DNA from: Raillietiella orientalis
Taxonomy: Eukaryota
Direction of reading: 5' to 3'
Assembly: GCA_036172245.1 (NCBI GenBank)
Contig: JAYWIR010000045.1
Location: 1,178,001-1,242,000, forward strand
DNA: 64,000 bases
In this document: piece by piece, positions 1-30,135 of the stretch
Position numbering within the stretch: the stretch's first letter is position 1
How the letters are laid out: every line of letters starts with the position of its first letter
Program-made: the position numbers and the translations under genes
Notes under the pieces: generated by a model
The model's input: only the letters and a program-made list of their open reading frames with translations
The model's database searches: none
What the model was told of the DNA's origin: nothing

Positions 1-666
1 CTGCATTTCCACTTGAAAACTTGCTCGTTACTAGGCGGATTGCAAATCAGGATTTCTTGGGAAAACCTGAATTCGAATTGCAAGTTTCTGTTTTCGGATC
101 TGAATGCAGAGATTTCGAGTTTGAAATCCAGCCTTAGTGCACGGCTTCTCAGCAGTACACACTTGGTCAAAAAGATTTCTTTCGAAGCAGTGACCCTCCG
201 TTGAATTTTGCGGTATGAGGACTGTCCTGAAGAGGTGAAAAGAGCCTAAATATTCACGAAACAGTGATGTGTGTTTCCGTCCGCGGAATTCGATATATTG
301 CTAATACTGTTCGATTCCAAAAGCGGAACGAGGCTGCGGATAGTCCGGAGGTAACGATCAAGTTAACATGTAGAATTTCACATCACCAATCATAAGCTAA
401 ATGTAATGAAATTTAGTCCGTCACTCCCCATGTGAGATGTGATGCCTCTTCCTTCAATCGTTACATGCTTGGGTGCTTCGGGTGAATTTCTCGTAATCGC
501 TGTAATCGGAAAAAAGGAAGTTACCCAGAACTACTCTTGCGTGTGTGTGTTTTTTCTTATGGTTCGAAAACACCTGAGGAAGTTCTGTACTTTATGCAGA
601 ATTTCTTCTATTTGTATTCTCCAAAATATTTGATAACTATGGTTGACGTAGCAATTATCTTAATAG

Positions 667-6461: not shown

Positions 6462-6949
6462 CATGGACTAGTGTGTGCTCGACTGCTTGTCCCTGGCGCG
6501 TGAATGCCTAAAATCTGGGAGGACAAGGATGATCGTGGTCATCATCGACGTCTGCCGATGCTCACCCGTAGTGTATTGAAGACCGCGAGTGGTTTTTGTC
6601 TATGTGCGGAAAGAAAATGCAAAAGTCCATATATGCTGTTTAATGTATGTCGTATGACTTCGTAATTTTTCACGTGTTTGCCGTTATGCGGACTTTGGTT
6701 GGTATTTCACTGGCATTTTCACATGCAAAGCTCTTTTGTCTGAAGTTCACTTATGCTCTTTGAAGGGTACAAAGAACATTTGGTTTACAAATTTGATTTT
6801 TTGTTTTCTCTATTTTCTCGCAAAAATTTGTTTGCCTTAATATCATCGCTGTGCCACCCTGGAAGCAGGGTTTCAATAAAAACGGTACATCTTGTATTTA
6901 TTGTATTTCAAGTACAGTGGATGTGAGTTTCTTGGTGGGAGCGATGCCG

Positions 6950-6982
6950 ATATATATATATATATATAGATAGATATAGATA
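6950..6982. repeat. (TA)n / TAGA microsatellite
   Basis: atatatatatatatatatagatagatatagata. Confidence 0.8.
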
Positions 6983-8799
6983 TGTATGAAAATATTTCGT
7001 TTGAAATTGATTAGATAAGCAAAAGAATAAAATTGTCTCTGGTTTCTGTTTAACATAAGATTCTGTTTATTTACTGCAGAACAGGTCCCCCATAGATGTA
7101 CAGTACGAAGTCGCGCGTTATGCTAACAAGCGTTCCTTTGATGGAATGTAAGGCCGCGTACACTGGCCATGTAGATCATCTCTAAACTACATTTGTTTAC
7201 AATTTTTGCGTTGTGTTCTGTAGTGTTTCAGGCATTTCAAATGGAACGTGCTTCCCAGCATGCATTCTTAACTTCGTTGATGATTTGTCATGAAGGCAAA
7301 GAATTCAGTGGTCGCGATCGTGTCTCCGTGTTATGAATGAATTCGCAAATGTGTTCGTTGATCCTAATTCCGATGGTGGGGAAAGGTGCACACCATAGCT
7401 ACATCACGTAATTATTTAGCTGATTTGGGAGTACACTGTTTGTGTACTGCACGTAATAGTAAGAGCAACCCTTTAATGCTTATCAGTGCCTTCTCGATTT
7501 ACTTGTTGTAGTCCGCAAATTTCCCCCCGTTGAGTTTGAACAACGATCTGCGTGATGCGAGGATGTGACGGTTTCGTGTTGGTTCCAAATTTTCCTAAGT
7601 GAGAGTGATTTCTAGAACATACTTGCTATGATGTCGGTCTTTCCCGAAGATCTTCAGCTTTGATGAGGTGCTCGCACGTTATCAGTTTCCGCAAATCCTG
7701 GATTTCAAGACAAACCGTACCGCATCTCTTTCATACCGATAAAGGCGAGTGCCTTGAGGGTGAACGACGTTTGTGTACATGAATATCAGGTGCTCATTGA
7801 CCTGGGGTTTTTGGTGGTTTGCATGGGGTGATCGCGTTGACAGGAGCGTGGAATTCGGGAGCTCAATTCGTTGTTTTCTGTTGATGAGGTGCGTCACAGA
7901 AATCATGAGGGCGTGCATCTGCGTGGGTGCTCAAGCCGCGTGTTACATAGGCAGATGAATTTTTAGAATAAGCAATGCGGCATAAATTTGTGTCAACCCT
8001 AAGACTTCCTAGCTTTTATTACCATTATGATTATGTGTTAACAAGCAAAAAGCATCGTTTCGAGGCACGTCTAAGTTTTCTGTAGTATTCCTTGATCTTT
8101 TCACAGCGCCTGATTTCGACTGATTCGTTTCAGATAGACCTCTCATATGTCCAGTCGGCCGGACGTAATAAAGATTCTGACACCTCTTTGGAATTTTGCT
8201 AATGACCCGTATCCACAATTGGAAAGTGGTTGTTAGCGCAGGGCAGTGTTTTCAGGAATGGACACGTACGTGTCCGTAATTCGATTCAGGGAGGGTATTT
8301 TTGTTGTTTGAATTCGAGGCAACTTTCAGAATCTTGGCAGGTTTCTTTACTTAGGTAACCACACCTTCGGATTTGACCGTTGGGATGATTCCGAGTTCCT
8401 GCATTTACAGTCTCGCCCGAAGATATTTATGCATGTGGATAGGTTTCGATATCCCGGAAGTATCCTTGTTCGAGAATGTGTATGCTTTTAAAATTCGCCG
8501 TGTGACGGAACGTAACCGGCTGTCAGGAGTGTGCAAATGCTGTCTGATAAATTGCAATTAGGTTACTTGTAAGTTAAGATGAGTGAGCATCTCGTTTTAG
8601 AATTTCACGTGTCTGTAACACGTGTAAATCGATAAAGTGTTGCATATTTATTTGCCCACGCATACGAAACCTCAGGTGGAATGCAGATAGTAATCATTTG
8701 AAACGTCAGTTGTAATCGAAATTTATGCGTTAACCTGTGTTTGTTATTTTTCAGCTGAAATTCAAAACCTTCTCTCCTAGAAGGCTTATATATGTGTAG

Positions 8800-11700
8800 A
8801 TGCATTGGTCAAAGCAAATGGTTCAGTCCATAATTAGGAAATTAAGCCTGCCCTTATATCCTAAAATCCCACATGTGCATTACAATTCTGTGAAAACGAT
8901 TGCTTCACACATAAGGCTTCCTGGCAAGAAAAATTTCCCGAAGATTTCGTCCGAGAATGACGTCGCTCATGCCGTCATAGAGCGGTACGGAAAGAACACA
9001 GTTGGGCCATCGATTGAAACTCGAAGACTGCCTCAACCCGTCCTTGACATGAAGGATTTCTCTCTCTTGCGTGAAACTAAGTTGCCGTCGGAATTTCTGC
9101 GTTACTTTGAAAAGATATCACTTTCCGCAGAAAGTTTTCACTCGGTATACACAGATGGCTTCCATGATATCACGAAATTACTGTGCAGATTTGCCAATCA
9201 TTTTAGTGATGAGGAACTAGTAAATGTGCTCAAGCTGTTGTCCCTGTGGGTAGGAACAGAGTTCTTTTCTTCCGGTTCTTTTCGTCAGATCCTGGAAGTG
9301 CTTAGTTCGCAGTGTGGTGATCGCATCAAGTCATGGAATCGTCAGAAGTGCTTTCTCGTTTTGGACTGCTGGTATAACCTTCGTGTCAGCCATGTGACAC
9401 CATTCGTGTCACAAACTCTTCGAATTATTAGTGAGCAGTTGAACTCATTAACGTGCTCGGAATTGGTCCAATTTATGTTTCACGTCAGTGTGCACCGAAA
9501 GTTGCCCGCGAACATCGACCAGGAGCAACTGGAGGAAAAAGTGCTTCGAGAAATCTATAACTTGGGGGTTGATGAAATCGCTATAGTGGCTTTGGGATTT
9601 TTCAAATCTGGAGCACGTGTGAAAAATCCTATCCTGACATGCATCATAATGAAGGAAACACAGAGTCGTTTAGATGAAATTCACGATGTACTGCTGAATG
9701 CTCTTTTAAAGCTGATCCGACGTAGCTGTCAGCCCGAATTTTCAGAAGTTCTGTTCACTTTCCTACGTTGCTTGGTTCCTCAGCTTGCTCATAGATCACA
9801 TTTTGTGGCTGCTCAAGGATTATTATGTGCAGCAGCTAACCAATTGATGCATAAGGAATTCTTATTACCAGCATCCCTCGTTCTGATGAATGCTCTCTCA
9901 GAGCTCCGTTTAAAGGACCTGGAAAGTTTGGTCTTCATCTTATCTTGGTTTACCATCCCGTTTTCTGAACGCAGGTACATTTTTTATCGGATCGCTGACG
10001 AAATGAAAAGCCCAAGACGTAAGGAAGAGAGAATTTCGTATCCTAAGAGCTATGTAAAGCTGGTTGCTGCATTTGTGATCGAAGGATTGTATTTCGAGCA
10101 CCTGATGCAGCCACTGTTCGGCGGTTTCTTATTGGGAGCAATCTCAGGTAACCTATAATTTGTTTTGCTGTTTACGAATTTTCATTATGTGAACTTTTCT
10201 CCCGAAGCAACTCGGAATCCTTGCAATTGCAGTTTTTTCAGTAGCTCCAAAAGTTCGAATGCAGCTACTTGTAATGTACATATAATGAAGTCACCAAACT
10301 CATAACAGGCAGATTTAACGTGCAGTGTTGGCTGTTGGTTGATACACTAATTATTCTGTGGATTGTATAGCGTTCCTGGTCGTCAACGAAAAATTTTACA
10401 TGTGCATCACTTTAACGAGAAATTCGTAGCGCAGGATGTCCTTTATCGTATTTTCTGCATATCCTTTACCGTGCACCTTCCGTCAGTTCGTTGGCCGTTT
10501 TAAAGTCTCGTTAATGATGTTTTCGATGCAATCATTTTTCTATCTGTGGGTCCATGGCTGATCTCAGATTTTTGCACTTCCCCACGGTCATGGTTTGGAG
10601 TGTGATGATTTCAGCCAAGTCTCCATGGCTTGTTTTCTGCCACTTGGGCATTTTTGTGTTTAATTTGCTTTGGATACAGTCACTTCTCACCAGTAGGCGT
10701 TTACGGTTACTGAATAGGATGCAGATGGTGATGAGTTGCGTATGTATGTACCTAGGGACCAGAAAAAAGAGTTCATTGCTCGGTCGACTCGTTATTACTG
10801 TACAAAGATTAGCATTTTGTTAGGATTCAGAGGAATTACTATGGAAACATTGAAATTACTCTTTTAAATAAATTGTGTAGCATTTGTACGGCAATTTGTT
10901 AAATTCAAATTGGTAAAGTACCGTCATAGATATAGATAATGCTGTTTTTTTTTTTTTTCTTTTCTATTTATCTGTGACCAACTTTCCTCAAGAGCATTCG
11001 CAAAACTGCACGAATCCTATGGCGTTTAAATAAGTGTCTTTTGAATGCTTTAGGCAAATCAGATTATCAGTTCTCCTAAGGTTCACTCCCCCAAATGCTC
11101 TTGTTCCCTTTTTAGAATCGATGGAAGTGTACAGATTAATACTGTTTATAAGCAACAGCGTAGAGATTGAATTTCGTGGCCATAAAAGTCTTCTAGAATC
11201 AGAGTTTAGGAAAAAAATTGTCGATGTGAGTATTTAGGAAGCATCGTATAGTGATATTTTTTTGTTTTAGAGCGTTCTAAACAAATCAAACCTCACTCGG
11301 TCCAGTGCAGCTAGCTCTCACTTCGAAAGAATTTCCGCCAGTGTCTCTCATTACTTGAAAAAGATATCGGGCGGCTTAGATGTTTGGACTGGCAGAATTC
11401 TTCCCCATTTTTACCACCCTGGTATGCGTACGGAGGAAAACTTTTGCATTCTTCATTCGACCTTTTCAGATTTCGTACTTCGGTTTGATCACCATGGCTG
11501 TGTACAACCTGTACCGCCCTGTTACAAGACTATGGAATCGGATGCAATTAGGCATCCTCTGAATGATAAATGCTTGTGGTTCTGCATTTTGATCGGATGC
11601 CAAAACATGTACAATAAATTGGATCGATCACCTTGTGGTTTACTTAAGGCCAAAGTAAGGCAGTTGATGGCATTAGGGTACTTGGTTGCAGAGGTATGTG

Positions 11701-14571: not shown

Positions 14572-15759
14572 ATGTCTGGCGAGTGGGGTAAAAATATTTT
14601 TTGCCCGTTTTATTATTCATCTTGCTGGAATTGTATCATCATCATGCAAATTTAAAACGCATTTTAGCCTAGAGAACAATTTGCTTTTTGTTGAGTAGTT
14701 GTCGTAGAAATAATGTGCTATTCTAAGTTAAAGTATCATATGATTGAGTTTGAAAAATTGTTGAAGTATTTCGTGATAGTTGTTGCTCATACGAGTGCTT
14801 TCTGAAATTCCAGACGCAGATGAAGGTATTGAGGAGCCAACTGTTGCGGTTGAATCCAAATGGGAAGGCGAGGATGATGATGATAACGTAAAGGTAATCT
14901 CGTGTAGTTTTACCTTCAGTATGTGTGGTGTCTGGTAATTAATTTTCACTTAATGTATTATTCTTTGTGAATTCTTTTTTGTGAGTCATTTGTCATGGTA
15001 ATTTGAACAACTGCTTTGAAAATGGATACTAATGCATTAGGACAATTGGTTTGATGAAGATGAAGAGCAAGTGATTCCTACTGAGGAAACAAATATACCT
15101 GAGCCGATATTTCCTAAGAGAAAGACCAATTTAGATAAAGGTGAAGAAAAAGAGTTTGAGGAAGATTTTGATAAAAAGGAGTTGACTCTTGAAGAACAGT
15201 TGAAAAAAAAATTGAGAATTCAAATGATACAGGAAGAAGCAGACTTAGAACTAGCAAGAGAAACATTTGGTATTGTATTTCACAAATGTGTTTTTGCATT
15301 TTTTTTTACTGTTTTCTTAGGTGATTGTCAGAGTGAATCATCAGTCAGTTTAGGAGATGCTCTTGTAAGCAAAAAGGACTTTGATGAATTTCGAGAAAAA
15401 TTAGTGGAGAAGCTGAAAAATAGCAAAAATTCCGTTTTTTTTATTCATTTCATGGAAGATCTATTGAGAGACATATGTCTTGATTGTAAGTTCGATAATA
15501 AGTGTATCAGTTTTTACAACTACATCTTCAGTGCCTGCAGATGATATCAAAAAATTGTCAAATTTAATAACTGTTGTTCACAATGAAAAACTCAAGCAAA
15601 GCAAAACCACAAAAGGAAGAAAGAAAAAAGCAAAAGTGTATATGGGAAAGGAAGTAAGTTGTGTTTGGTTTGGATATGTGGTAATCATCTAATGTTTGAT
15701 TTCAGACTGATATTGAACAGTTAAATGTAGCTCTGGATGATTATACAGATTTTTTTTAG
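14572..15759 (+). CDS. EIF3J: Eukaryotic translation initiation factor 3 subunit J. Exons: 14572-14587, 14814-14893, 15041-15269, 15321-15485, 15532-15653, 15706-15759
   Basis: MSGEWD...KWEGEDDDDNVKDNW, KLRIQMIQEEADLELARETFG, DDIKKLSNLITVVHNEKLK, and C-terminal DDYTDFF*; all junctions GT-AG and in frame. Confidence 0.93.
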
Positions 15760-15849: not shown

Positions 15850-17560
15850 TGCAAAAGAAATTAATAAAAGCTGATACACTTGAAAGAAAATGATGCTTTA
15901 CATACTCTGTCATTTTTAATTAGAAAATCATTTGTGAGTAGGATGCAGCTGATGAACCTTTTTTCATTTTGTACTATTAATCGAGCAGCAGTTTTCTCTA
16001 TGGCTGCTTCTCAGAATTAATGGAAGAAAATGGATGATGTAACACAAGGCTTCATCAAACATTCATGCAAGACTCAGTAAAGTTGGGTGCATTTGGCATA
16101 CAAGAGTTCACCAATAGCGTGATGTTTTCATTGTGTTCTCATGTGGCCTTTAAAGAATTTATTAAAATTCATCTAAATATTAATGTCTGTTAGAACAATA
16201 AGCTTTTTCAAAACTTAACATTAATTTCAAACGTAATAGGTTGTATTGCTTTTCAAAAAGTGTAGCATTACTCAAAAGTATCCAAAAATCGCAAGTAGCT
16301 AACTGATTACAAATTATTGTGTTTATGATATCGTGGCGTGGTGCGCGAGAGAATTTGTGCGAAGGTAAACTATATGCACAATGGGACATTTACACTGCAA
16401 GTTGAAGGTACCACTTTGAAATCTGATTGAGGCGGCAGATTCCCCCTAAGTGTTCAAAAAAAAACCGTGCAACTTTTCAAGACTGTAATCTTGCATCCTC
16501 AACTAGCCCGCAGCATCGTAGGTGAAATGACGTCAATTCAAATCAAATTCAACAGTTCAGTTCAACACCTATTTGGGACATTGAGGTATTCGACTCTGAA
16601 ATGGGATACTTGGGATTTCACCTCGAAGAAGGAATGAATTTCAGTGATTAGTGTAGTTACACAATGAGTACCTCCTAGATGTGTACTGTCTTGGCATCAC
16701 TTATCTCGAGCCTTACATTCATCTACGAGGGAAAAGGGGTGTTGTGTCGGAAAGATTCGGATACGCTTCTCATGAGGTTTATGTCGGTAAATCTCAGCCA
16801 AGTCAAACAAAACGCACAACTGAATTTCTAAAGTGAAAACGAGTTAAACTGACCATATGAGAACGAGACCTTTGCATGTGTAACACGTGGCATGGAGAAT
16901 TTCGTTAGAAAGTTCAGGAGGAATGAAGTATTTGAAGATACTCTGAACATGAAGTTCAGTATGCAAGCTGATGAAAAGAAATGTGGGAAGAGTAGAGTAG
17001 AAACAAAACTAGCTCACAAATACACTTGAAGTAAATAGGAGATAATATTTGAGGTTTCGAAAATTAACTGTTTCTTATTATTTTAAGCACTGCTTATTAA
17101 CTGTCATGTATTCTTTACCGATTTAAATAGTAGATCTCGACATAACCATCTAAAGTAGCACACATTACACGTACAGCCGGTTGGGCTGCAAATACTGAAT
17201 CTCTTTGGTCTTCGGACTCGCTATAAGATGCAGACTATGTGGATTACATTGGTAGGCAAGAAAGGTTTAGCTCACTATTTGTACGGTCAACATTCTGTTT
17301 CCTAGCTTAAGGTACTCTAGAAGCGTGAGTGATGAGGATAGCTAGCTCACTATTTCAACAGTTACGACGTTCATTTAAATTTCTATCAGTATCCATAACC
17401 CCAAGCATCCAAGGACACAGACACAAACGCAGATCCACCAAATGATTAACCATGGAGGGAAATTCTCGAGTTTTTTCAGAAAAACGAAACAGCAGTACAG
17501 ACCGTTTAGATTAGGAAGATTTTTGGATACACTGCTTCTTTTGTACACCGGTGACATCAT
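15850..17560 (-). pseudogene. RAD17: Heavily decayed RAD17-like (9-1-1 clamp loader) relic; boundaries approximate
   Basis: Motif remnants in the correct order on the minus strand, separated by stops and frameshifts: SELAI (17337-17351), degenerate Walker A SICSPTGC...WLCRDL (17131-17196), KITVLKS (16472-16492), KCPIVHIV (16368-16391), NATLFEK (16249-16269), HAIGELLYAK (16092-16121). Confidence 0.55.
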
Positions 17561-17857
17561 GTGGTCGAGTATTTGTAAGTAATTTAACTTCCACCTGTAT
17601 TAAAGGTTTTTAAATACAAATGTAGTTTTTTGCCATTTGCCGCTCTTGGCAGTAGATTTAAAAAATGGTTTCCAAAATCTTTATATCATATTACTTTTAA
17701 TGAGGACTAATTATATTATTGACTCCTAAATTGCTAAGTTCTTGAATTTTCATTTATTCTTGTAATAGTGTTACTTACTTGTAAAGAAAAAAATTCAATT
17801 ATCCGATCTTTCTGAATTTTGGATTTATTAGCGGAATTTCCTTCTTGTTTCTTTTTT

Positions 17858-20112
17858 ATGCTCTTTCGAATACGTGTCGGCTTAAGTTTTCCAGAATTAG
17901 CAAAAAAAATGGGGCGGGAGTTTTTGCGAAAGCCGAAAAGAAACAGGGGAATCTTGACGAAATGTGTACTGCTTTCGACTGTAGGGAATGAGGATGAATT
18001 GTTCTCATAAGATATTCTACAATTATGGCTGTTGAAAAACTCTCGGCCCGTGGAGACAGTCCTCTCCTGTATTGCATGCAAATGGACTGTAAAAAGTGCA
18101 GCTCCTTGGGGAGTTGTACTCTGATGTTACTTGGGCGGTCGAAAGGTCGAAGAGGGTTGTCGAAAATGGGGATTAGGATGCGTGTACTACGTAGTGCGGC
18201 TTAAATAGCAATAGCGGTGTGATAGTGATAAATATGCTTATAACGTCGAAGACTGTTGTCAGCCTAAAGCTAAAAGAGTCAATTGCTGCATTCTAACTGG
18301 TTTCTTTTGTTTTGTACCAAGGAATTTTCATTTTGGTTTTAAGCATGCATAAAAGTATTTCTCATAAGCAGAAGTTGGAATATTTGGGACCATATTCCAT
18401 CATGCACCCGAAAACTTCAATAGAAAGAGCCTGTGTGGTAGAACAAGTAAGAATTCACTCATTTTTTTTTTGTTAATTGGTGTCATTTATCAATGTCTTT
18501 CACAATTCCCTTGTATTTTTGTGTGAAGATTATTTTTTCCTCGTGTTTCAATTGCCCTTACGAATTGTGAACATGATAATGGGATTCTTTGTAATGTCCT
18601 TCTGCAAAAGCAATATGCATGAAATTTCTTGCTACTCATTTTGTATTCACGTTTGCGTCGCCCCTTCGAATTCTGTAGGGAAGAAAATAATCGATTTATA
18701 AGCTCATAACAACTGTGAAACAGAAAGGGATCGTAAACTTTTGCATATGTGATTATTTAAAGGTTCTGAATAGTATCTGATGAGCTTGAAATCCAATGCT
18801 AATTTTACACATAAAAAAGTTATGATAATTCCTGGAATCCATGCATTATTCGCACAAAACAACTGTAGGGACAGTATTTTTATAAAAAGAATAGATCAGG
18901 AATTTATCTAAATATTTCACTGCATAATAAACGTACTTTAGGAAATGCACAATATCTTTGCAAATTTCAGCACACAATACTTCTAGAATAATACATCTGA
19001 GAAGCATTATCATTTGTTCCAGCAACTGTGATCATGCGTTAGCTCATGATCACTGAAGATAAATTTTGAATAATGTTATAAATTGCATGAATTAACTTTC
19101 TGTTGAGAATTCGTGCATTTTATATGAAACCGAATTAATAAGTCATTTATACTTTGCTATCCAATACAGTGATTACAATATTGATGATCAGTGCTTAACA
19201 AAAGTGGGAAGCAATAACAGCCTTAATAATAGAGAAGAGGTGTCCATATGACGTACTTTAAATCAGAGGGTGACTGGAGATTATTAATTGCTATAATATC
19301 TGTATTTGAAGAAATTGATAACTACAGAATGTGAAAGTAAGAGCTGTTTGAACTACAGTAAGAAACTGATGAAACTTAAATGCAATGATAAGAAATATTA
19401 TAGCAAGGGGATATCAATAGAATAAAATACAGGAATTATTTGAAGCTAAGTTTTTTAGAACAGCAAACTAAGTTCTGGCTCGGGTCCGCATCTGCATCAA
19501 ATATTGGTAACAGTAGGTGTAATTATCCAAAATGAAACCACTTGCATCTAAGTGTAACTTGAAATTACATTTTCAGACTTTAGATTCAGAGTGGTAGGAA
19601 GTGCAACCTTTAATTCAAATAAATGCAGATAAATTTACAGTGAAAGCAAGTATGTAATTTATATATAGCTTTCATCTGAGTCAGAAATGAAGTTCCAAGG
19701 TATTCATGATTAAAGGTGGTCAAATCGAGACAAGAAGGTGACTTGAAATACATAACTTTCATGCTCTTTGCTTTCTAAGATTGTATGTATGGACCATAAC
19801 TAGTAAGGGCACACTTGGAATTCCCAATACATTATCAATACATTTTCTCCACCCATTTTGTCTGTGTCTCAGTATTATCAAAGGTGTTGTTTTTTTAATT
19901 GCAAGCACTTCTGATCAGAAATATTGACGAAAAAAACAACTTTAAGAAATTTCATTCTTATTTTTTTGCTGCACAGATCTGTAAATTATTGGATTAAGGT
20001 TAATCCTTTGTTTTGTTATAGTTTTTATGTATTCGTGTGGTGGTGATAAGCAAACCTTAAACAATTTGTGTATAAATGGAAACAATTGCACATATTACTT
20101 ATACATAACTAG
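17858..20112 (+). pseudogene. Decayed N-terminal (BRCT and linker) part of the SLF1-like gene
   Basis: BRCT-like remnants in shifting frames: ELAKKMGREF, STIMAVEKLS, ETVLSCIACKWTVK, GGRKVEEGCRKWG (compare SLF1 EKFLAACAAGKWILT and SGRWLDETTYEWG). Later exon-like blocks carry in-frame stops. Confidence 0.45.
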
Positions 20113-21067
20113 GCTTCAGAAGCACGATGCAGTATTTTTGGAGAATATTTAGCTGCTGGAAATTTGAAGCAAGCTCTGATGTACATTTATAGCATGACAA
20201 CACAGCAAATGTATCCACAAGCTGTTACTGTACGGCAACTTATGCAAGAATGCATTTTGGTGAGCACAGTTACTGTAGTTTTTACTCATAAATATTCAGA
20301 ATTCCAACAATACAGCCGTGCAAAGAGAAGCACTTTCTTATATTCGCAAACTACTAGACCTATATCCTCCTTTAGAGTGTAGTCTGAGAGGATTGTATTC
20401 AGAAATCTTTTTTGGTTACAATTATCGATCAGTGGATTGGAATTCTTGGGTGAGAATGCATTCACAAACTTGTATTCTGTTATAGCATTCACAGAAACCT
20501 TGGAAGGTTCTAGAAGAATTAACAGAAAACTATCAGAAATCAGAACACAATACTAGGTTTCTGTGTTTATTAAATATTTTAATAGATTTTCTGGAATTGG
20601 ACTTAAGACACTGGCTTACCATGTAAGTATATTATGATTTTGTATTGAACGTGCATGTGATTATATATACAAGAGATGAACAGCTTAAATGGCAGGATGA
20701 AAATCTTCCTCTGTTGTGCTGGATTTATTGGAAAAAATATAGCATAGGGTTAATTAATGTTGCTGTGAAATACCTTTTGAAATTATTAGTACATCTACTT
20801 CATGCTAAAGAAATGTATTTGATGACTTGCATCCAAGTAAGCTACTGCTAGTGCTACTCATCAATTATTTTTGTGTAGAGACTAGTTGCTATGCTGGCAG
20901 AAATCATTCGTCTCTGTGAGGCAAAAAGTTCAAAATGTCTTCTGTTAGTTCAGGCATTAACAGCACAACTGTCCAAATTGCCAGTTTCATATGAGATGTT
21001 AGATTGTCTGTATCCCTTATGGTTGCGCCAAGAAGTTTTGGAGTCACTAAATTTTCGATCCACATAA
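20113..21067 (+). CDS. SLF1: Intact 5-exon frame (about 261 aa) encoding the Nse5-like helical domain of SLF1/SIMC1-type SMC5/6 loaders. Exons: 20113-20259, 20300-20449, 20486-20622, 20674-20836, 20879-21067. Start codon unresolved
   Basis: No stops after splicing. YPQAVTVRQLMQECIL, KLLDLYPPLECSLRGLYSEIF, PWKVLEEL, LLNILIDFLELDL, PLLCWIYW...GLINVAVKYLL and LYPLWLRQEVLESL line up in order with the SLF1 segments YIPPVCVLHALL, LLHLHPPW...YYLELF, LLEIFW...VNMLL and SSWLQMFVAEAV (recalled, not searched). Confidence 0.65.
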
Positions 21068-21548
21068 CTTGTTGAACCTTTAGTTCAGGACATCTTTTGT
21101 TTAAAGGGCTTCAGATTTATCAAGATTTACATAAAAGTTGTAATAATTAATAAGAAAAGTCCAAGGTATTACAGCATAAGAACTTGGAACAAACATTTAG
21201 GCTCTTAGTATCTTCAAAATAAATTATTTGATTTATGTAATTGTTTATTGATAACAGTGTATCAACAAACTAAGAACAAACAGTTCATTGAACAAAATGG
21301 TTGACAGCACAATTTCATGGCTGACATATTGACTACAGTATTTTATCCAGCTAAGCAAATTTGCACTGGGAACTGAAGAATTTAAGAAACTCAAATATAA
21401 AATGCAAGTGGACAGCTTAATTGCCATGTTTAGTTCGAGATAAATCTGACTATACACTCACACTCTTTCTTGGTAAAATCTTTAATTCATATTTAACAAA
21501 TTCTTAAATTGGATATTTTGTTAATTTGCTTGTAAGAAAATAATGCTG

Positions 21549-23285
21549 CTATAATGTGCTTTCTGATATGATGACAACAGGCTGAACTGAAATCACAGTA
21601 CAGTAACGGAAGTATTTTATAGATGGATGCGCTTACCTTTCCGGCAGTGTTGTAATGAAGAAGAAAGCAATCCTACAAGTGCAAGTAATAAACTACAGAT
21701 GCCAATAATACTAAGAATGAATTGGTGAAATGGCATGAAAATAAAGAAGTCTTTTCTGAAAACATAGTGAAACACTTTTCACATCAATTATACATACTGC
21801 CTAGAGTATAGGTATTCAAGAAGCATAACAGCTACACCATTTGATGCTTTGTCCATAAAACTCATAACACCATAAATAAAACCAGTATTGCCTGCATAAT
21901 CAACAACAAGGTCTGCTGTGAATGCTAATGAAGTAATGAGAACAACAGAAGAAGCTATTCCCATTAAAGAAACAGCACCATACAATCCAAATGACTTGTA
22001 AAATTGACTGTTGTCAAACCATACCCATAGGCATGCACTAATGCCTACTAAGATACCTATAAAGTAACTGGCTCTTTTACCAGCCCAAGCATGTAATGGT
22101 TGTAAAGGAAAAGATGCCACCATGCCAGTGACATACAGTAATAAAGGTAGACTTGCCACAGTTGTACTGGGCAGGCTAAGGGTGCTTTGCAAATACAGTG
22201 GTAGATAGACTTGTGTCAAATTCACATATAAACGAGTGCCCACATACAGCATGCAAAGGGAATAAAATTCAGGTTTCTTGAACCATTCCCAGAAACTTAT
22301 GCTGTTAACGTTAGTGTGATTCACAGCAGTGCCAGGCAAATTATCTTGTACTTCTTTGACACCCAAATGGAATATGAAAGAAAAAAACAATCCTATTCCC
22401 GTAATGGAGCACACAACCACCTATTTGAAAGAATAATTCATCATTGTTAAAAGATTCTTACTTGAAAACTGTGTTTATGCTCTGGAGCAATTTTGTTATT
22501 TCCATTTCTCAAGCCTAATGCCAGCCAAGTGATAACAAAAACCATAATGTTAGACAAAGCAGTGAATGCATACCTAAAATTGGATTACAAACATAATGAA
22601 TTACATGTATTTTTACCGAATTGCTGTTAGCTGAGTGCGTTCTTGATCACTTGTTGACAAATAAGGTATTAAAGACAAATGTGAAATTTGAACAGCTGCC
22701 CAGCCAAATTGAAATATTATTACAAGCACTGAATAATAAAAAGCTTTGGCCCAATCTTCTGAATGTTCACATCCATAACATTCAGCAAAAATAAAAGGAA
22801 AGCTACCAACAATGCAAAAGGTACCTTCAACATAAAAACAAAAAATATGGCAAATCTATTCATGAATTTCTTCAAATGCTTTTGATTTGCATAGTTTATA
22901 GCTTTTAAAATACTAATAGTTTGCAAAATTATTTACAGCAATCATTCATAAGATTCATTGTAACCTGACCTCTTAGGAAGCATAAAAAATTTCACTCACC
23001 AATTAGGTGCAACATCTTTCTTCGTCCAAACTTACACGTACTAAAGTAATTACTTCTATTTTGATCAATTTCTAAACCCACTATCACAGTAGAAATAGCA
23101 TCTGCTATCTGACCCACTAGCATAACTAATCCAGATAAAGTACCTTTAAATTTCAACACCATATTAAAATATAATAAAAAGTAAGTGAACCATTGTGAAG
23201 CACAAAGGTCATTGTATACATGTCCTACACCATATGATAATTTCTGGGTCAATGAAAGACTCCCAGTTGATTTGAATATTGTCAT
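21549..23285 (-). CDS. MFSD12: Major facilitator superfamily domain-containing protein 12. Exons: 23285-23000, 22824-22617, 22573-22462, 22420-21798, 21755-21637, 21586-21549
   Basis: SYGVGHVYNDLCASQWFTYFL, GRRKMLHLIGTFC..SFPFIF, FQFGWAAVQISHLSLIP, TRLYVNLTQVYLP, FIYGVMSFMDKASNG. The last small exon is less certain. Confidence 0.92.
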
Positions 23286-25649
23286 TTTTGATTAACTAGG
23301 TCTGCCTTGTGTGCAGAATGGCAAATGTGTCCGTTAAGATTCGGATTTCTTGACCCGTACTTGGTTGACAAAAAGTTTTAAATACTTTCTCTTGTCAGAT
23401 ATCCATACTGCAAAACTGATATGGAAAATAATGTTTTCACTTATTACATTTAACATACACAAAAGTGGCACACAAAAAGCTGATGGCACACTCAACGTAA
23501 ACCCAAGGTATTAAATATTCGAAACATCACTTTTCGCGGAAGCTTTTTAAACATTTTAACATAGACCCATCCGTCTCTTGAAAACAAATACGTACTTTTA
23601 TCAGGAAAAGTCTAAAATACGAACATGACCTTATCGCTAGCATTGTATGTGAGTACACGTATAGTATTTAAATGCACGATAACGTCTTAATAACCTTGAA
23701 AAGTCCAACTTTGTTGCACGTCGCACCAATGCACCGTTGGATTTTCCACAGTCAGGAAAGTAGCGGTTACCTGGTATTTATTTCGAACCTTGGCATAAAT
23801 CTGGTTTATCGCTTATCTCTATGACGCTCATCTTCAATGTGATCTCTCCTACGAAGTACAAAAAACTGGTCCGAAAAACGTCACCGTAGCAAAAAGTCAT
23901 TCATCCTATCTGCTGTGAAAACGAGAATATTTATATATGATTAGTAACGTTCTTCAATCCTGTGAAATCCTATACGATGCAGAAATCTGATGATACATAT
24001 CGAGTATCAGCTAAGGTTTCAGCGTTATTCGACGTTCTCATTTACTTCGAGATCCTTCTGTTTCGGTAATCTGAAGAATTACCTTACAACTCATCAATAA
24101 TCCAAGCCACGAGAGACTGAGTGATGACTGAAAGATCCTTAATCAGAAAGTGAGGATAAAAGTAAATATGAAACAGTTATGGAGGATTCACTTCAATCTT
24201 TAGAAAATTCACACCGAATCAAGTACATCCAGAAGTGGATGTATAAAGGAAAGAAACCGAATTATGTTGTCGGAAAGTTTGATTGGAAACAATTAAAGCT
24301 AATAATTCCGAATCACATCTCTAGTGCACCTTTGCTGTCTACGTTCCACCATCTTCAGAGGTGGAGATGGTCCTTTATTCGATAATGGGATTTAATGAGG
24401 CCAAAATTGCTTCTAAATCATATCGTAAAGCAAATTACAGATGCACGGCAATTAATTTATCACAACTTCGCCTATCAGCTCACTTCAAAATACGTGCCGT
24501 AAAGCTTGTTTCAGATTTATGTCGTAAACGATACATGAAGTGGAGACTACGGGGCCCATCACCAACGTCCGCATCGGTTACAGGATACCCATCGACTCAT
24601 TCTCAACATGCGAAGCGCGCACATAGCAACTTCGATTAAGCAGTAATTGCATCAGAAAGGGAAAAGAAGAAATCTGCCATTAGGTTTTAATACATTTATA
24701 AATTAGCTATCCTGTTTTGCGTTCAAATCACTTTCTGTGTAACAAGGCAATAAAATATGTGCTTGCTTAATGTTCAGAAGATGAAGTCGAAAATTTTTAA
24801 CCGTAAAAATCTTGAATCAAAAATATAGTTCCCATAATTCAGCTTAATTCACTTTATCATCTACAGTAACTATTGCATTATTTTTCTCTTGAAATTGTCT
24901 TAAACTGAATGCATCCTTGCCAGAAGTAACTTTCTTTCTGAATGAAATTAAAAGTACTGACAAGAATCTCTCATTACAGTCGAATACTATAGCTTACCGA
25001 TCTTCTCATTTAGTACCAGGGCAAATATCCAAGTGTGATTTTGATGATGATTTTTCGTTTTTTTTCAAGGTCCAAAGTTAATGGCATCCAACAAATGGTC
25101 TCATAGTTTTAATGTTGTTGGGAATTATCGTTTAGTCTTTAGAATAATTTACATTCTTAGCTCTGATATACCATTTTCTCTTTGGTAAATGCAACTCTAT
25201 CTATTTTATGTTAATTTATTTCCAAATCTTTACTATTTTTCAAGTATTGTTCATAATTATTTGTAACACGTTCAAGCAAACTTAGAGCTGAATTCAAAAG
25301 ATGTCTTTATTTTGATGAATGTGTTGGGAATAAAGTTTTTACTACGATCTTCGTTTATGTGATGTGTATGCACTAGACAAGTGCCTTATTCTTGATTTTT
25401 TTTACACATATCTGGCATAACTCTATGTGGAATTACGTAGTTTGCTTGTCATTCAACGGGATGAATAATCAGCATTTAGTTCATCATATTTATATTATTA
25501 TAGCTTTCTTAACATTGTGTGTCCAAGCTATTCGAATACTGTTTGATCAAAGCATCTGCCACTGTTGGATCACAACTGATCTAACTGCACAAGTCATAGA
25601 ATTCAGCCAGTCATCTTTCGGACACCTTTGAAAGCCTGCATAGGTTTAT

Positions 25650-26200
25650 CAACCCTAATACGTGATGGAAATCTTGCAATACCTTGAATTAGACGGCGCC
25701 ACTGTGTGTTCAAACTGTCCGTGAAGAATGCACTTATGTGTTGGCCAATAATCGATCTGTCAATGACAAATCAACCTCCCGAGTCGTGGATTTTCCTTTG
25801 CTAATGATCTAACTGACAGCTCACAGCTTGATCATTGACTTTCCTGTGGTGCAGCCAGATCTTTTCTTGAGGTTGCATTTCCTATGCAGCTAGTGTGGGA
25901 TATACTGGCAGGTAGCTTGAATTTTGGGGAAATAAGAGGATTCCACACCAGCCCTATTTCATAGCATTCCACAGTTTGCAAGATATACTGTCATTCTATC
26001 CATCTTCCTCAATTCTTTCTAGATTTTCTTGTGGCCTTGTTTTCCTAAAGGAAGACTAGCATTCTCTTGTTTGATAGTTTTGCATCTCCTGGTCCCAATG
26101 TTTTCCATTCTTGTGGTATCTATGTAGTGAGTCTTGAGTTTATTTGGCATAAAGTCCAGGGATCACCTGGAGTCTTGATTGTATCCGAAGGTCCAGGGTC
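25650..26200 (-). mobile_element. Possible degenerate non-LTR retrotransposon (AP-endonuclease) remnant
   Basis: Broken motifs MENIGTRRCKT (compare IGTWNVRT), KTR (compare ETR) and AGVG/ILL in order, with many stops; weak. Confidence 0.3.
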
Positions 26201-26379
26201 CTTGTATGTCAAGTCCAAACACCAGCTGCACAGGAGTGCAACTTAAACTACCTCGAGCAACATATGTGCTGCATCAAAAATCAGATCTCACAGTTCGAAG
26301 ATGAAGATCCATGCACAATGTAAACAAAAACGAGTGGAGGCTGTCTGTCATGTCCCACATCCGAATTCCGTTAACATTT

Positions 26380-26480
26380 CCGTTAACACTTTTGTGTGCG
26401 CATCGCTTCACCCCGCCGGCGTGTTGGGCTTCAGTGCGGAGCGCCGAGCCTTCCCCACGGTTCGGTAAGTACCGCCCCAC
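26380..26480 (+). promoter_or_regulatory. GC/CpG-rich patch with a strong donor (cg|gtaagt at 26465); probable non-coding first exon or promoter of the septin gene
   Basis: Local GC richness in an AT-rich background, upstream of the acceptor (tttttcag, 27662) that precedes the septin ATG. Confidence 0.45.
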
Positions 26481-27678
26481 CTTCTCAAATGGTGTCTGAA
26501 GTGTGTGGAAGTCATCATATCCTCGCCTGCTGCAGTGTCATATTATATAGCCGTCCGTTGGTAAAGAGAGTAAGTTGCAGGTCGTGACTGTTTTTGTGTC
26601 TGTGTGACTCTAGGGAGCCGTTCCATGCCCTCTCATTTGGTAGTCACACACGTAGATGCCGAGATTCGAACAGTGACGTTCATTGTATGGCAGTGAGCTT
26701 TCCCTTGTTTTTGACATTTTTCACAGAGTGTCTTTGCATGCATCCGGACGTGGTCTTTGAAAACATCTGATTTAACATCTTCACCATTTAATAATTTCAC
26801 ACCCTTGTGCTTTCGAAGTTACGTGTGAGAGTGGTAGTTGACGAGTGTTAGTGGATTAAAACACAGATTTGGCAAATTCTTTGTGCAGTGCTTAAGTAGT
26901 TTTAGAATCCCATATTGCAGTTTTCTGGTGTGCGCTTGGGAAAAATGAATGAATTCTGAATTTTTTTCGCTCCGACGAAACATAAACTCGCAAAAATCAG
27001 GATTTAGAAGAAAGTTTCAATTCTGTTCTTTAAACACTTCGAAAGGTACTTTATAAAACGGGACACACAGGCAGTATGTATATTATATGCAAATCTGCCT
27101 TCGCGTGTATGTATGCATACATGCATGTGTGATACAATGAGACACGGTGAATACTTTTCAAATGCATGTATTTTTCAATAGTTTTGCTTTCAGGCAAATT
27201 CTGTTCATAAATAACAGAATACAACCGAAGATCGGCATGCCAGGAGCCATTATAAAGCAGGGGTGTTAGCCTATGTTAGGTTTTGTTTACATTGGTACCA
27301 CTTTGTTTTACTAAAGGTAAGGTTTCATTTGGAGGATTTCATATCAGTAAGTTTGATTCTTTCATGACATTAAATAGCACTACAATTCATGTGCTGCTAA
27401 TCCAAATTCAGGAATTGATATGGCTAAATAAGAAGTGATATGGTATTCCGTTGATTTTAGTTAATGTTTCTATTAAGACTGTGTCTGATATTATGTAGCT
27501 AGTAAAATTTATTAATTTACGTGCATCACTGTTGAGGTGAGCAGTGTATTGTAGGAATTAGAAGCTTTGTAATGAAGTGAATGTGTGAATGTTTAAGTTT
27601 GCTTTCAAAATTTATTTTTTAGATTTAGAACACGTAATGCTAACTGCTCAGATGTTTTTCAGATCAACAATCTGAGAG

Positions 27679-30135
27679 ATGTCTGCAGTTGATGTCCACA
27701 AACCACTCCATAAACCAGACCATCTTATAAATCAGGTATCCTTAAATTGTCTCGTGTTGGAAATTTCAATTTTTTATTGATTGTGAGACCTACAACTAAC
27801 ACTCTAGAAAGGCTGGATAAATGCTATCAGTTTTGTAGTTGTTATTTTATCCTGCAACATCTCATGTGCTGAAAAAGATAAAAGACTGTATTCTGTTAAA
27901 GTAACAAACAAATTAAAGATTATTGCAATTCAAACTTTATTGATGTAAAGCTTGTAAGTGGATAATACTATTTGTGCACATTTTTTTATGCTGCGTTTTA
28001 TGCTTATGTATTCCCTTGGACCAAGTTTTAGTTAATATGTTGCAGTAGTTTTCCTTCCATGGGAAGTGTGCATAGCCTCATCATTGTTTTCGATTATTAA
28101 ATGAATACGCATTTGAAAGCAATGTTTGCTTTGGCCATTTGCTCTCCGGAGGTGTCAACTTGAACAAGCTTTCGCAGTTACTTTAGCATTATCTTATTTT
28201 TTTTAAAGTATTGCTGACATTCGTTTTACACTTGAATTGCTTTCTTTAATTTCTCTGCATCATGCAAGTTTTTTTTCTGCTATTTTTTTTCTTTTTTTCT
28301 TTGAGTTTGTTATGCATTTTTGTTCATAACATTAATAATGATTTGTTCATGACAATGCAATAGGTATCGATAGTATTGATCTACCAAAAACAAGGATTTT
28401 GCCACAGTGAACCATTTTAACCAGTTTGTATTTATGTACGAATAGATGCAAATTTTTTCTTCAAGATTTATAACTAGTATAATGTTGAAAAGATCTCTTA
28501 AGGACAAATGTAATTGAAATGAAAAAAATGTTGAAATTTCATAAGTGTTAAATCAGCACTTGGCTTTTGGTTCTTTATATACTTTTGTATAAATTGCTGT
28601 GCTTACAATTTTTTTTGTTCCTTTGTTATTTTAGAATAAAGTGCAAACTACTATTGAGAATGAAATACCAGTATTAAAATTACTAGGTCATGTTGGCTTT
28701 GATACTCTTCCTGATCAATTAGTGAATAATACAATTTCTCAAGGATTTGTTTTTAACATACTGTGTATTGGTAAGTGCAAACTATTCTTGAGGTTTGTTT
28801 ACCTTAAAGTGTAGGGGAAACTGGAATCGGAAAATCCACTCTAATGAGTTCTTTATTTAATACAAATTTTGAATGCACTCCAGCCTCTCATGATATGAAA
28901 GAAGTGTCACTTAAGTCAAATGTTTATCATCTTAAAGAAGGCAATGTCAAGTTGAAGGTTTGTTATCCAGGTGTGTTATTGCGTTACCCATGTTAAAACA
29001 TAAATTCATTTCAGCTAACTGTGGTGGATACAGTTGGTTACGGAGATCAAGTCAACAAAGAAAATAGTTTTAAGGCAATTGTTGATTACATTGATGCGCA
29101 GTTTGAAAAATATCTGCAGGAGGAATTGAAGTTGAAAAGAGTATTCTCTGTTGATAGTGACTCACGAATACATGTGTGTTTATACTTTCTATGCCCCACT
29201 GGTCATGGGTGAGTTCAGGTGAATTATTATGTAAGTTGATTGCCTTATCAGTTTAAAAGCTATTGATCTCGTATGTATGAAGCATTTGCAAAATCGAGTA
29301 AACATTATTCCAATTATAGCTAAAGCTGATAGTATTGCCAAAAATGAGCTTCCAAAGTTCAAGGTAATTTGGTACTTGTTTCATAAGAGCCCATCAATAT
29401 CCATTCTATTCTAGCAAAAGATAATGTCTGAACTGACCAAAAATGATGTTCACATCTATCATTTTCCAACAGATGATGAGAACATGGGTGAATTTAATCA
29501 TACCGTGAATGCTCTCGTTCCATTTGCTGTTGTTGGAAGTACAGATATGATTAGAAATGGTTCTAAGTTTATAAGAGGTCGTCAACTTCCATGGGGTTTT
29601 GTGCAAGTGGAAAATGAGGGCCACTGTGATTTTATCAAACTACGTGAATCACTCATTTACATAAATATGGAAGACTTGCGTCAACAGACTCATGCAATGC
29701 ATTATGAGCTTTATCGCTGCAAACGATTGGTGGAAATGGGATTTTCTGATGCTGAAAGCAACTCAACATCATTTCAAGAACACTGTGAAAGAAGACGTAA
29801 CGCTATACATATTGAGATGCAAAAACGAGAAGAAGATATGCGCAACACATTTATTTCAAAAGTAAAGAGTAAAGAAGATGAGTTAAAAGAAGCAGAAAAC
29901 GAGGTGAGCAATCCTAGCATCGAGTTTAATTCAAATGTTTATTTGCTAGCTGCAAGCGCGTTTTGAAGCTCTCAAAAGAGAACGTACTGAAGAGAAAAAG
30001 CGTTTAGATGAAGCAAGGAAAAAACTAGAAGACAGTATTGCAGAATTCCAAAAGTATAAACTCCAAATGTTATCTCCTAGTGGAGGTCATCACACCCTGT
30101 CCCTTGGTACCTTGGGCAAACAGCGCAAAAAATAA
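27679..30135 (+). CDS. Sep2: Septin of the SEPT6/8/10/11 group (Drosophila Sep2-like). Exons: 27679-27735, 28635-28770, 28815-28957, 29015-29208, 29252-29363, 29415-29903, 29950-30135
   Basis: [78 protein letters not shown]-terminal coiled coil; stop TAA at 30133-30135. Confidence 0.94.

What the first reader, a model, noticed from the sequence alone, without database searches (positions are those of the whole stretch)
17858..21067. Half-dead SLF1-like gene: BRCT half decayed, Nse5-like half intact, no ankyrin repeats seen
Seen: five exons (20113-21067) splice into about 261 stop-free codons, while the upstream 2.2 kb holds frameshifted BRCT remnants. The frame stops at 21067 and I see no ankyrin repeats in the roughly 480 bp before the MFSD12 stop. 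Known: vertebrate SLF1 has N-terminal BRCTs that bind RAD18, an Nse5-like domain shared with SIMC1, and ankyrin repeats. Inference: the gene may have been trimmed to a minimal Nse5-like SMC5/6 loader subunit with a new start, uncoupled from RAD18 recruitment.
Basis: partly seen in the sequence, partly recalled or inferred. Interest (0 to 1): 0.7.

Follow-up and report, generated by a model that had tools for sequence, protein, structure and literature searches.

The report
SLF1 gene trimmed at both ends
An invertebrate DNA-repair gene has let its front (RAD18-reading) domains rot and stops before its back part, yet keeps a clean 261-codon middle, and the RAD18 partner gene could not be found in the same genome, so this looks like a stripped-down helper of the SMC5/6 complex whose identity and expression still need proof.

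Summary
The observation largely holds. Five GT-AG exons (20113-21067) give 261 stop-free codons with the coding signal of live genes. Upstream lies a broken tandem-BRCT relic of the TopBP1-7/8 / SLF1 type (joint score beaten by 0 of 140 tiles; weaker or absent in other settings) that no canonical splice path repairs. No ankyrin was found. Two corrections. No tool confirmed the Nse5-like identity: it rests on the BRCT relic, architecture and recalled motifs. And the domain is not 'intact': 261 residues match only SLF1's N-terminal half, and the human C-half is needed for SLF2 binding (PMC9708086). New here: an in-frame start at 18345 can splice into the exons (295 aa); SLF2, SMC6 and Nse1 genes are present; RAD18 was not found in four searches. 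Best reading: a live SLF1 orthologue trimmed at both ends after RAD18 loss (0.5). Rivals: dying gene, unrelated ORF, assembly error. No reads or relatives were available. The scan earlier noted ankyrin loss in elephant-shark SLF1 (other DNA, unchecked).

The parts
17800..18300 (+). CpG-rich 5' zone, probable ancestral promoter / first exons; one E2F-like word at 17913 (consensus recalled, chance not assessed)
   Evidence: CpG o/e 1.03 for 17858-18300 against 0.15-0.49 in 500-nt tiles over 19001-21500; motif position
17858..18176 (+). Decayed first BRCT (TopBP1-BRCT7 / SLF1-BRCT1 type): frameshifts near 18012 and 18034, TGA at 18122-18124
   Evidence: coding score 5.7 in the motif frame at 18041 despite the stop, 99th percentile of background 5.3; no DNA-level likeness to TopBP1
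18223..18335 (+). Relic of the inter-BRCT linker and start of the second BRCT, frameshifts near 18282 and 18335 in the best alignment
   Evidence: alignment path; individual positions uncertain
18322..18446 (+). Open exon-like piece in the second-BRCT region; holds ATG 18345 and 18402; good phase-0 donor at 18447. Candidate first coding exon (34 codons from 18345)
   Evidence: BRCT8 likeness alone weak (14 of 254 tiles); Atlas no hit
18447..20112 (+). Candidate 1,666-nt intron; contains coding-like relic pieces (19096-19422) that may be the old linker or alternative exons
20113..20259 (+). Core exon 1 (49 codons, helical hairpin-like); acceptor weak (2.4), a stronger phase-1 acceptor lies at 20120
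   Evidence: PDB gives only designed PPR hairpins, Atlas an RFC C-terminal helical family at 0.93
20300..20449 (+). Core exon 2
20486..20622 (+). Core exon 3
20674..20836 (+). Core exon 4 (coding score marginal, 0.1)
20879..21067 (+). Core exon 5, ends in TAA 21065-21067
21068..21443 (+). Tail: probable 3' UTR with AATAAA at 21218; the frame stays open 46 codons after the stop and has an intron-like 43-nt piece (21166-21208); possibly a decayed C-half of the solenoid (by eye only)
   Evidence: 146 of 2388 non-coding runs are 47 codons or longer; no Pfam hit
21549..23285 (-). Convergent neighbour, MFS transporter (MFSD12-like; name by eye), clean exons
14572..15759 (+). Upstream neighbour eIF3 subunit J, clean exons

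Best explanation
This is the genome's SLF1 (Nse5-like) orthologue, still alive but trimmed at both ends. Shown: a broken tandem BRCT of the SLF1/TopBP1-7/8 type upstream, a clean 261-codon spliced frame downstream, no ankyrin, no splice past the stop. Inferred: RAD18, the only established ligand of SLF1's BRCTs, was lost in this lineage, the BRCT exons were released from selection and decayed into 5' leader sequence; translation now starts inside the old second-BRCT exon (ATG 18345 or 18402) and splices to the core exons (295 aa from 18345); the protein is the N-terminal two-thirds of the helical solenoid, the end that faces SMC5/6, and still pairs with the intact SLF2 as a reader-less Nse5/6-like subcomplex, recruited to chromatin by other means.
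For: Coding score 0.043 per base against 0.041 for held-out genes, shifted frames -0.171 and -0.071. Donor scores 6.0-7.6 within the 4.8-11.0 range of 21 neighbouring introns. 286 open codons against at most 128 in 38 tiles. With 2-5 disablements per 140 relic codons, zero in 261 has Poisson probability 0.024 to 9e-5. CpG depletion over 19001-21500 like the bodies of eIF3j, the MFS gene and eIF2-gamma, with a CpG-rich 5' end at the relic. BRCT relic 0 of 140 tiles, 0 of 60 shuffles; this genome's TopBP1 BRCT7-8 matches human SLF1 BRCTs at E 1.2e-18. No second SLF1-type BRCT in 1 + 6 family matches, no paralogue of the core. SLF2-like gene with an open 641-codon path, SMC6-like and Nse1 genes. 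RAD18 not among 17 of 17 RING matches, 13 of 13 SAP matches, 2 of 2 UBZ4-pattern matches, 0 RING-pattern matches. PMC9708086 section 10: the N-terminal end of SIMC1/Nse5 is the conserved end and yeast Nse5's last helices do not touch Nse6. PMC2656531 section 5: Rad18 is lost from several ecdysozoans.
Against: No tool ties the 261 codons to SLF1, SIMC1 or Nse5: PDB sequences, Pfam, 1.84 billion representatives, Atlas on exon 1 pointed to RFC C-terminal helices. Human SLF1 without its C-half did not bind SLF2, and helices 14 and 17 carry interface residues (PMC9708086). The BRCT signal depends on scoring settings. Twelve ATGs lie between 17858 and 18234 upstream of the proposed start, the acceptor at 20113 is weak, and 234 to 9312 open 5' paths exist, so the start is not determined. 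RAD18 searches read exon by exon, score only top candidates and used recalled patterns; the UBZ4 pattern missed the FAN1 gene that is present. CpG depletion is a historical signal.
Confidence: 0.5

Rival explanations
1. The gene is dead or dying: it lost its ends stepwise and the last loss (the C-half, by the stop at 21065) abolished SLF2 binding; the core is clean only because that last step is recent.
For: Human C-half requirement. Frame open 46 codons past the stop with an intron-like piece behind it. No secure start codon. Nse5/Nse6 are patchily found among species with SMC5/6 (bioRxiv 10.1101/2024.01.07.573240, passages).
Against: Zero disablements in 261 codons and four intact introns; the partner SLF2-like gene keeps an open path; if the tail is a relic it holds several further stops, so decay there began long enough ago to have hit the core too (tail identity is by eye).
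Confidence: 0.2
2. The 261-codon gene is live but is not (or no longer works as) an Nse5-like subunit: an unrelated helical protein, or an SLF1 fragment with another job, lying behind an old BRCT relic.
For: All family, sequence and fold searches failed to name it; exon 1 resembles generic helical hairpins.
Against: Same strand and order as SLF1 (tandem BRCT, linker, helical domain); one continuous CpG pattern from the relic into the core; an in-phase donor joins the BRCT2 exon to the core; Nse5 orthologues are known to escape direct sequence search; the word-index search also missed TopBP1 homologues; motif order resembles SLF1/SIMC1 as I recall them.
Confidence: 0.18
3. Assembly or haplotype artefact: the real gene has intact BRCTs and a longer C-terminus, and the breaks are local sequence errors or a defective allele.
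For: No reads could be laid; several breaks are one- or two-base shifts; the 5' DNA is single copy, so no second haplotype could be compared.
Against: eIF3j, the MFS gene and eIF2-gamma in this window read cleanly; breaks include in-frame stops and a missing GT donor, not only homopolymer slips; the clean core starts 1.6 kb away; the apparent absence of RAD18 is independent of this locus.
Confidence: 0.12

Closest known systems
Human SLF1 (ANKRD32/BRCTx): tandem BRCT, split Nse5-like solenoid (410-725, 936-1058), ankyrin insert (726-935)
   Same: Order and strand of a TopBP1-7/8-type BRCT pair followed by a helical domain; SLF2-like partner gene in the genome.
   Different: BRCTs are broken, no ankyrin, no C-half in frame; product 261-295 aa; RAD18 not found.
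Human SIMC1 (SIMs, disordered N-terminus, uninterrupted solenoid 468-858)
   Same: BRCT-less and ankyrin-less Nse5-like subunit of SLF2.
   Different: SIMC1's solenoid is about 390 residues with 17 helices; this frame is about two-thirds of that, has a BRCT relic upstream and no long SIM-bearing N-terminus that I could find.
Stand-alone Nse5 of yeasts, plant ASAP1/NSE5, putative Drosophila Nse5 (CG5664)
   Same: Reader-less Nse5 is a known state; yeast gets BRCTs in trans from Brc1/Rtt107.
Elephant-shark SLF1 without ankyrin exon (earlier scan note e1-8039428, unchecked)
   Same: Reported decay of one SLF1 reader module with the rest in frame.

Membership tests
SLF1 | N-terminal tandem BRCT of the TopBP1-7/8 type, in frame | tested here: not met
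   Present only as a relic with frameshifts and a stop; 0 of 234 and 0 of 9312 open splice paths cross 18080-18100. Supports SLF1 ancestry, not an intact domain.
SLF1 | Ankyrin repeat insert | tested here: not met
   No Pfam ankyrin hit in 50 of 50 window frames between 16431 and 29399 (89 frames were listed, the longer and nearer ones were chosen); motif scan of 16000-29400 empty.
SLF1 / SIMC1 / Nse5 | Nse5-like alpha-solenoid by profile or structure | tested here: inconclusive
   No sequence hit; single-sequence model all helical but pLDDT 38, fold searches uninformative. Resemblance rests on recalled motifs.
SLF1 / SIMC1 / Nse5 | Complete solenoid including the C-terminal helices (14-17) | tested here: not met
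   Frame ends at 261 codons; donors after 21020 score -0.8 to -4.0 against 4.8-11.0 for real introns. Reference lengths from PMC9708086.
SLF1 / SIMC1 / Nse5 | Binds SLF2/Nse6 and regulates SMC5/6 | not testable with these tools
   Partner genes present; no spliced chain or alignment could be supplied for a complex prediction.
SIMC1 | Tandem SUMO-interacting motifs in a long disordered N-terminus | not tested
   The 5' coding path is undetermined; the upstream relic is BRCT-like instead.
TopBP1 fragment copy | DNA-level likeness of the relic to TopBP1 | tested here: not met
   Local DNA score 20 against tile mean 21.9, 140 of 158 tiles as high; genome DNA search finds only the locus itself.

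The most novel reading that the evidence does not exclude
A natural minimal Nse5: only helices 1-13 of the SLF1 solenoid, expressed from a new start inside a dead BRCT exon, still forms a working complex with SLF2 in an animal that has lost RAD18. It would show matched loss of a phospho-reader and its ligand caught in the DNA, and that the C-half required in human SLF1 is dispensable in another lineage.
Probability: 0.3. Interest if true: 0.65.

Novelty: new variant of a known kind. Interest (0 to 1): 0.45.

Why it matters
How SMC5/6 is brought to damaged DNA differs between lineages, and Nse5 orthologues are hard to trace. A gene that still shows its lost BRCT reader next to a preserved core, in a genome apparently without RAD18, gives a direct test of whether SLF1's BRCTs exist only for RAD18 and of which part of the Nse5-like solenoid is the irreducible SMC5/6-facing unit. 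It predicts a wider pattern (BRCT loss in SLF1 wherever RAD18 is lost) that can be checked across arthropod genomes. Reader-less Nse5 proteins are already known, so the kind is not new.

Tried and rejected
Sequencing runs: none was listed, so no reads were laid; this is no evidence either way. Word-index homologue searches: none for exon 5, and none for the TopBP1 BRCT7-8 control although PDB gives it E 7e-34, so these blanks are uninformative. 1.84-billion-protein search: 0 at E 0.001. Single-sequence AlphaFold2 model pLDDT 38; Foldseek no match at E 0.001; VIA-align best Z 5.5, generic helical hairpins, SIMC1 not among the 50 rows shown. One metagenome locus (L011) is the seed word plus an in-frame stop; rejected as chance. 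Designed-PPR hits to exon 1 are summed weak repeats of about 4 bits each; Atlas RFC C-terminal hit on 49 residues treated as a generic helical lead. Two averaged-BLOSUM BRCT profiles from nine in-genome BRCTs gave no signal. Relic as a TopBP1 copy: rejected. Ankyrin or C-half further downstream on the + strand: none. Non-GT donors were not enumerated; an intron of 34 nt or more could not in any case mend the adjacent frameshift and stop without removing core BRCT residues (inspection). A first impression of a decayed Mpv17-like gene inside the SLF2 locus was dropped when those pieces fell on the open SLF2 path. No complex prediction was run: only single exons without alignments were available. 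A bacterial promoter scan was irrelevant. Literature searches for BRCT-less invertebrate SLF1 or SLF1-RAD18 co-loss listed no such report; the library lacks most subscription papers, and the supplements of bioRxiv 10.1101/2024.01.07.573240 (Nse5 orthologue tables), which I could not see, may already hold short arthropod Nse5 proteins.

Full report
Setting. The window lies on contig C45 of a 210-Mb, 491-contig animal genome with short introns (21 introns of neighbouring genes: 39-226 nt). Earlier scan notes call it an arthropod; I did not test that. The locus sits between an eIF3j gene and a convergent MFS transporter (Pfam); these and eIF2-gamma read without frameshifts by inspection.

The 3' exons are real. 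Exons 20113-20259, 20300-20449, 20486-20622, 20674-20836 and 20879-21067 give 261 codons and a TAA. The introns are GT-AG, 40, 36, 51 and 42 nt; donor scores are 7.6, 6.0, 6.1, 7.3 against 4.8-11.0 for the training introns, acceptors 2.4, 4.6, 5.8, 2.0, 5.0. A periodic coding model trained on 17.7 kb of this genome's genes scores the path at 0.043 per base (held-out genes 0.041; shifted frames -0.171 and -0.071), and all five exons score best in the expected frame, exon 4 only marginally (the model penalises stops, which favours any open frame). A permissive splice-path search gives 286 open codons here, at most 128 in 38 of 38 non-coding tiles, and 75 and 76 in the two upstream tiles. CpG is depleted over 19001-21500 (o/e 0.15-0.49) as in the bodies of the neighbouring housekeeping genes and is at 1.03 over 17858-18300. 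I infer gene-body methylation behind an unmethylated 5' end at the old BRCT exons; this records history, not present expression.

The BRCT relic is real but faint. Pfam and PDB see nothing in any frame, also when stops are read through. I therefore used this genome's TopBP1 BRCT7-8, which matches human SLF1's BRCTs at E 1.2e-18. Plain tblastn gives 36% over 18032-18172 at E 8.7. Frameshift-aware alignment ranked the region 3 of 150 tiles with strict penalties, 1 of 252 tiles reached it with softer ones, the second BRCT alone was reached by 14 of 254, and two averaged profiles gave nothing. The joint BRCT7-8 alignment scored 101; 0 of 140 tiles (max 96) and 0 of 60 local shuffles (max 80) reached it. 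Several settings were tried, so take this as about p 0.01, not better. Independently, the motif frame at 18041 scores 5.7 in the coding model despite a stop (background 99th percentile 5.3, n 342). The alignment needs frameshifts near 18012, 18034, 18282 and 18335 and passes a TGA at 18122. No ATG-initiated GT-AG path to the core crosses 18080-18100 (0 of 234 and 0 of 9312 paths), so splicing does not restore BRCT1. The relic is not a DNA copy of TopBP1. With 2-5 disablements per 140 relic codons, none in 261 has probability 0.024 to 9e-5: the two parts did not decay together.

Start and end. Core exon 1 begins at an acceptor and its first Met is residue 23. An open piece at 18322-18446 holds ATG 18345 and 18402 and ends at a good phase-0 donor (7.3) that joins 20113 in frame across 1,666 nt, giving 295 aa. 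This is the simplest path, not the only one; twelve ATGs lie upstream and a stronger phase-1 acceptor lies at 20120. At the 3' end, donors after 21020 score -0.8 to -4.0, so the TAA is not bypassed, and AATAAA lies at 21218. The frame stays open 46 codons past the stop (146 of 2388 non-coding runs are 47 or longer), and by eye the tail could be a decayed C-half; that is untested. No ankyrin was found.

What the protein is. No tool named it; the single-sequence model was all helical at pLDDT 38 and its fold searches were uninformative. The word-index blanks carry no weight because the TopBP1 control was blank too, and even the SLF2 exon reached human SLF2 only at E 0.35. The assignment to SLF1 rests on architecture (a TopBP1-7/8-type BRCT pair followed on the same strand by a helical domain), on the absence of another SLF1-type BRCT among 1 + 6 family matches (gene names by eye), and on my recollection of SLF1/SIMC1 motif order, which comes from no call. 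PMC9708086 (abstract, passages, sections 6, 10 part 1 and 12) gives SIMC1's solenoid as 468-858 with 17 helices and SLF1's as 410-725 plus 936-1058 around an ankyrin insert; SLF1 without the C-half did not bind SLF2, while the N-terminal end is the conserved one and yeast Nse5's last helices do not touch Nse6. A 261-residue frame is therefore the N-half, not an intact domain.

The rest of the pathway. An SLF2-like gene lies on C4 (CANIN; E 2.7e-4) with an open 641-codon ATG-to-stop path, middle exons uncertain. SMC6-like and Nse1 genes are present (SMC6 named by eye). No paralogue of the core was found. RAD18 was not found: TIGR00599 gave 17 RING matches, all read, 14 assignable by eye to other genes and 3 with the RING late in a long frame; a recalled RING pattern gave 0, without positive control; the SAP family gave 13 matches, 10 other SAP proteins and 3 weak ones; a recalled UBZ4 pattern gave 2, SPRTN and polymerase kappa, and missed the FAN1 gene that is present. 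These searches are exon by exon and score only top candidates, so absence is likely, not shown. SLF1's BRCTs bind phosphorylated RAD18 and also DNA (PMC11551741, passages). Rad18 is kept in honey bee but missing from the other insects and the nematode examined (PMC2656531, passages and section 5). Nse5 orthologues evade direct sequence search, are patchy, and carry BRCT or ankyrin only in some lineages (bioRxiv 10.1101/2024.01.07.573240, passages; supplements not seen). PMC13167486 (passages) summarises BRCT supply in trans in yeast.

Verdict. Most likely (0.5) a live SLF1 orthologue trimmed at both ends, its RAD18 reader lost along with RAD18, working as a reader-less Nse5-like partner of SLF2. 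Rivals: recently dead gene (0.2), live but unrelated or repurposed protein (0.18), assembly artefact (0.12); no reads were listed, so the last cannot be closed. Reader-less Nse5 proteins are known, so this is a new variant of a known kind. I found no report of this state or of SLF1-RAD18 co-loss in nine searches. Interest 0.45.

Noticed in passing
G000 whole genome: RAD18 not found, while polymerase kappa, REV1, SPRTN, FAN1, BRCA1-, MDC1-, PTIP- and TopBP1-like genes are present (names by eye); raises the question of how PCNA is ubiquitinated here.
   Followed up: partly
L020:1315-5016, minus strand (G000:C4): The SLF2-like gene seems to start at the CANIN region, about 640 codons, without the long disordered N-terminus of human SLF2; its middle exons are uncertain and extra exon-like pieces lie at about 3400-3560.
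   Followed up: partly
window 1-64000: Sharp CpG depletion over housekeeping gene bodies and none between genes; a UHRF1-like gene is present (L017): a gene-body methylation signature usable as a gene finder in this genome.
   Followed up: partly
L012, L014, L054: COP1-, RBBP6- and RAD50-like genes lie in very long open frames (652, 1608, 1302 codons) although neighbours here have many 40-60-nt introns.
   Followed up: no
L013, L015, L027, L028, L042-L044: Several loci are strongly GC-rich with long open frames in all phases, unlike the AT-rich window; GC-rich compartments or DNA of another organism in the assembly.
   Followed up: no
window 18138-18170: Three copies of a six-base word (GTCGAA) within about 30 bases at the end of the BRCT1 relic.
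   Followed up: no
window 20450-20485: A 36-nt intron, shorter than all 21 neighbouring introns measured (39 or more); core introns 2-4 are all multiples of three and each holds an in-frame stop.
   Followed up: partly
window 8800-11700, 35280-39200, 62500-62900: Other genes in the window by eye: a 452-codon frame at 8800 (FASTK-like family), an EFHC1-like gene on the minus strand, a BRCA2-like OB-fold exon.
   Followed up: no
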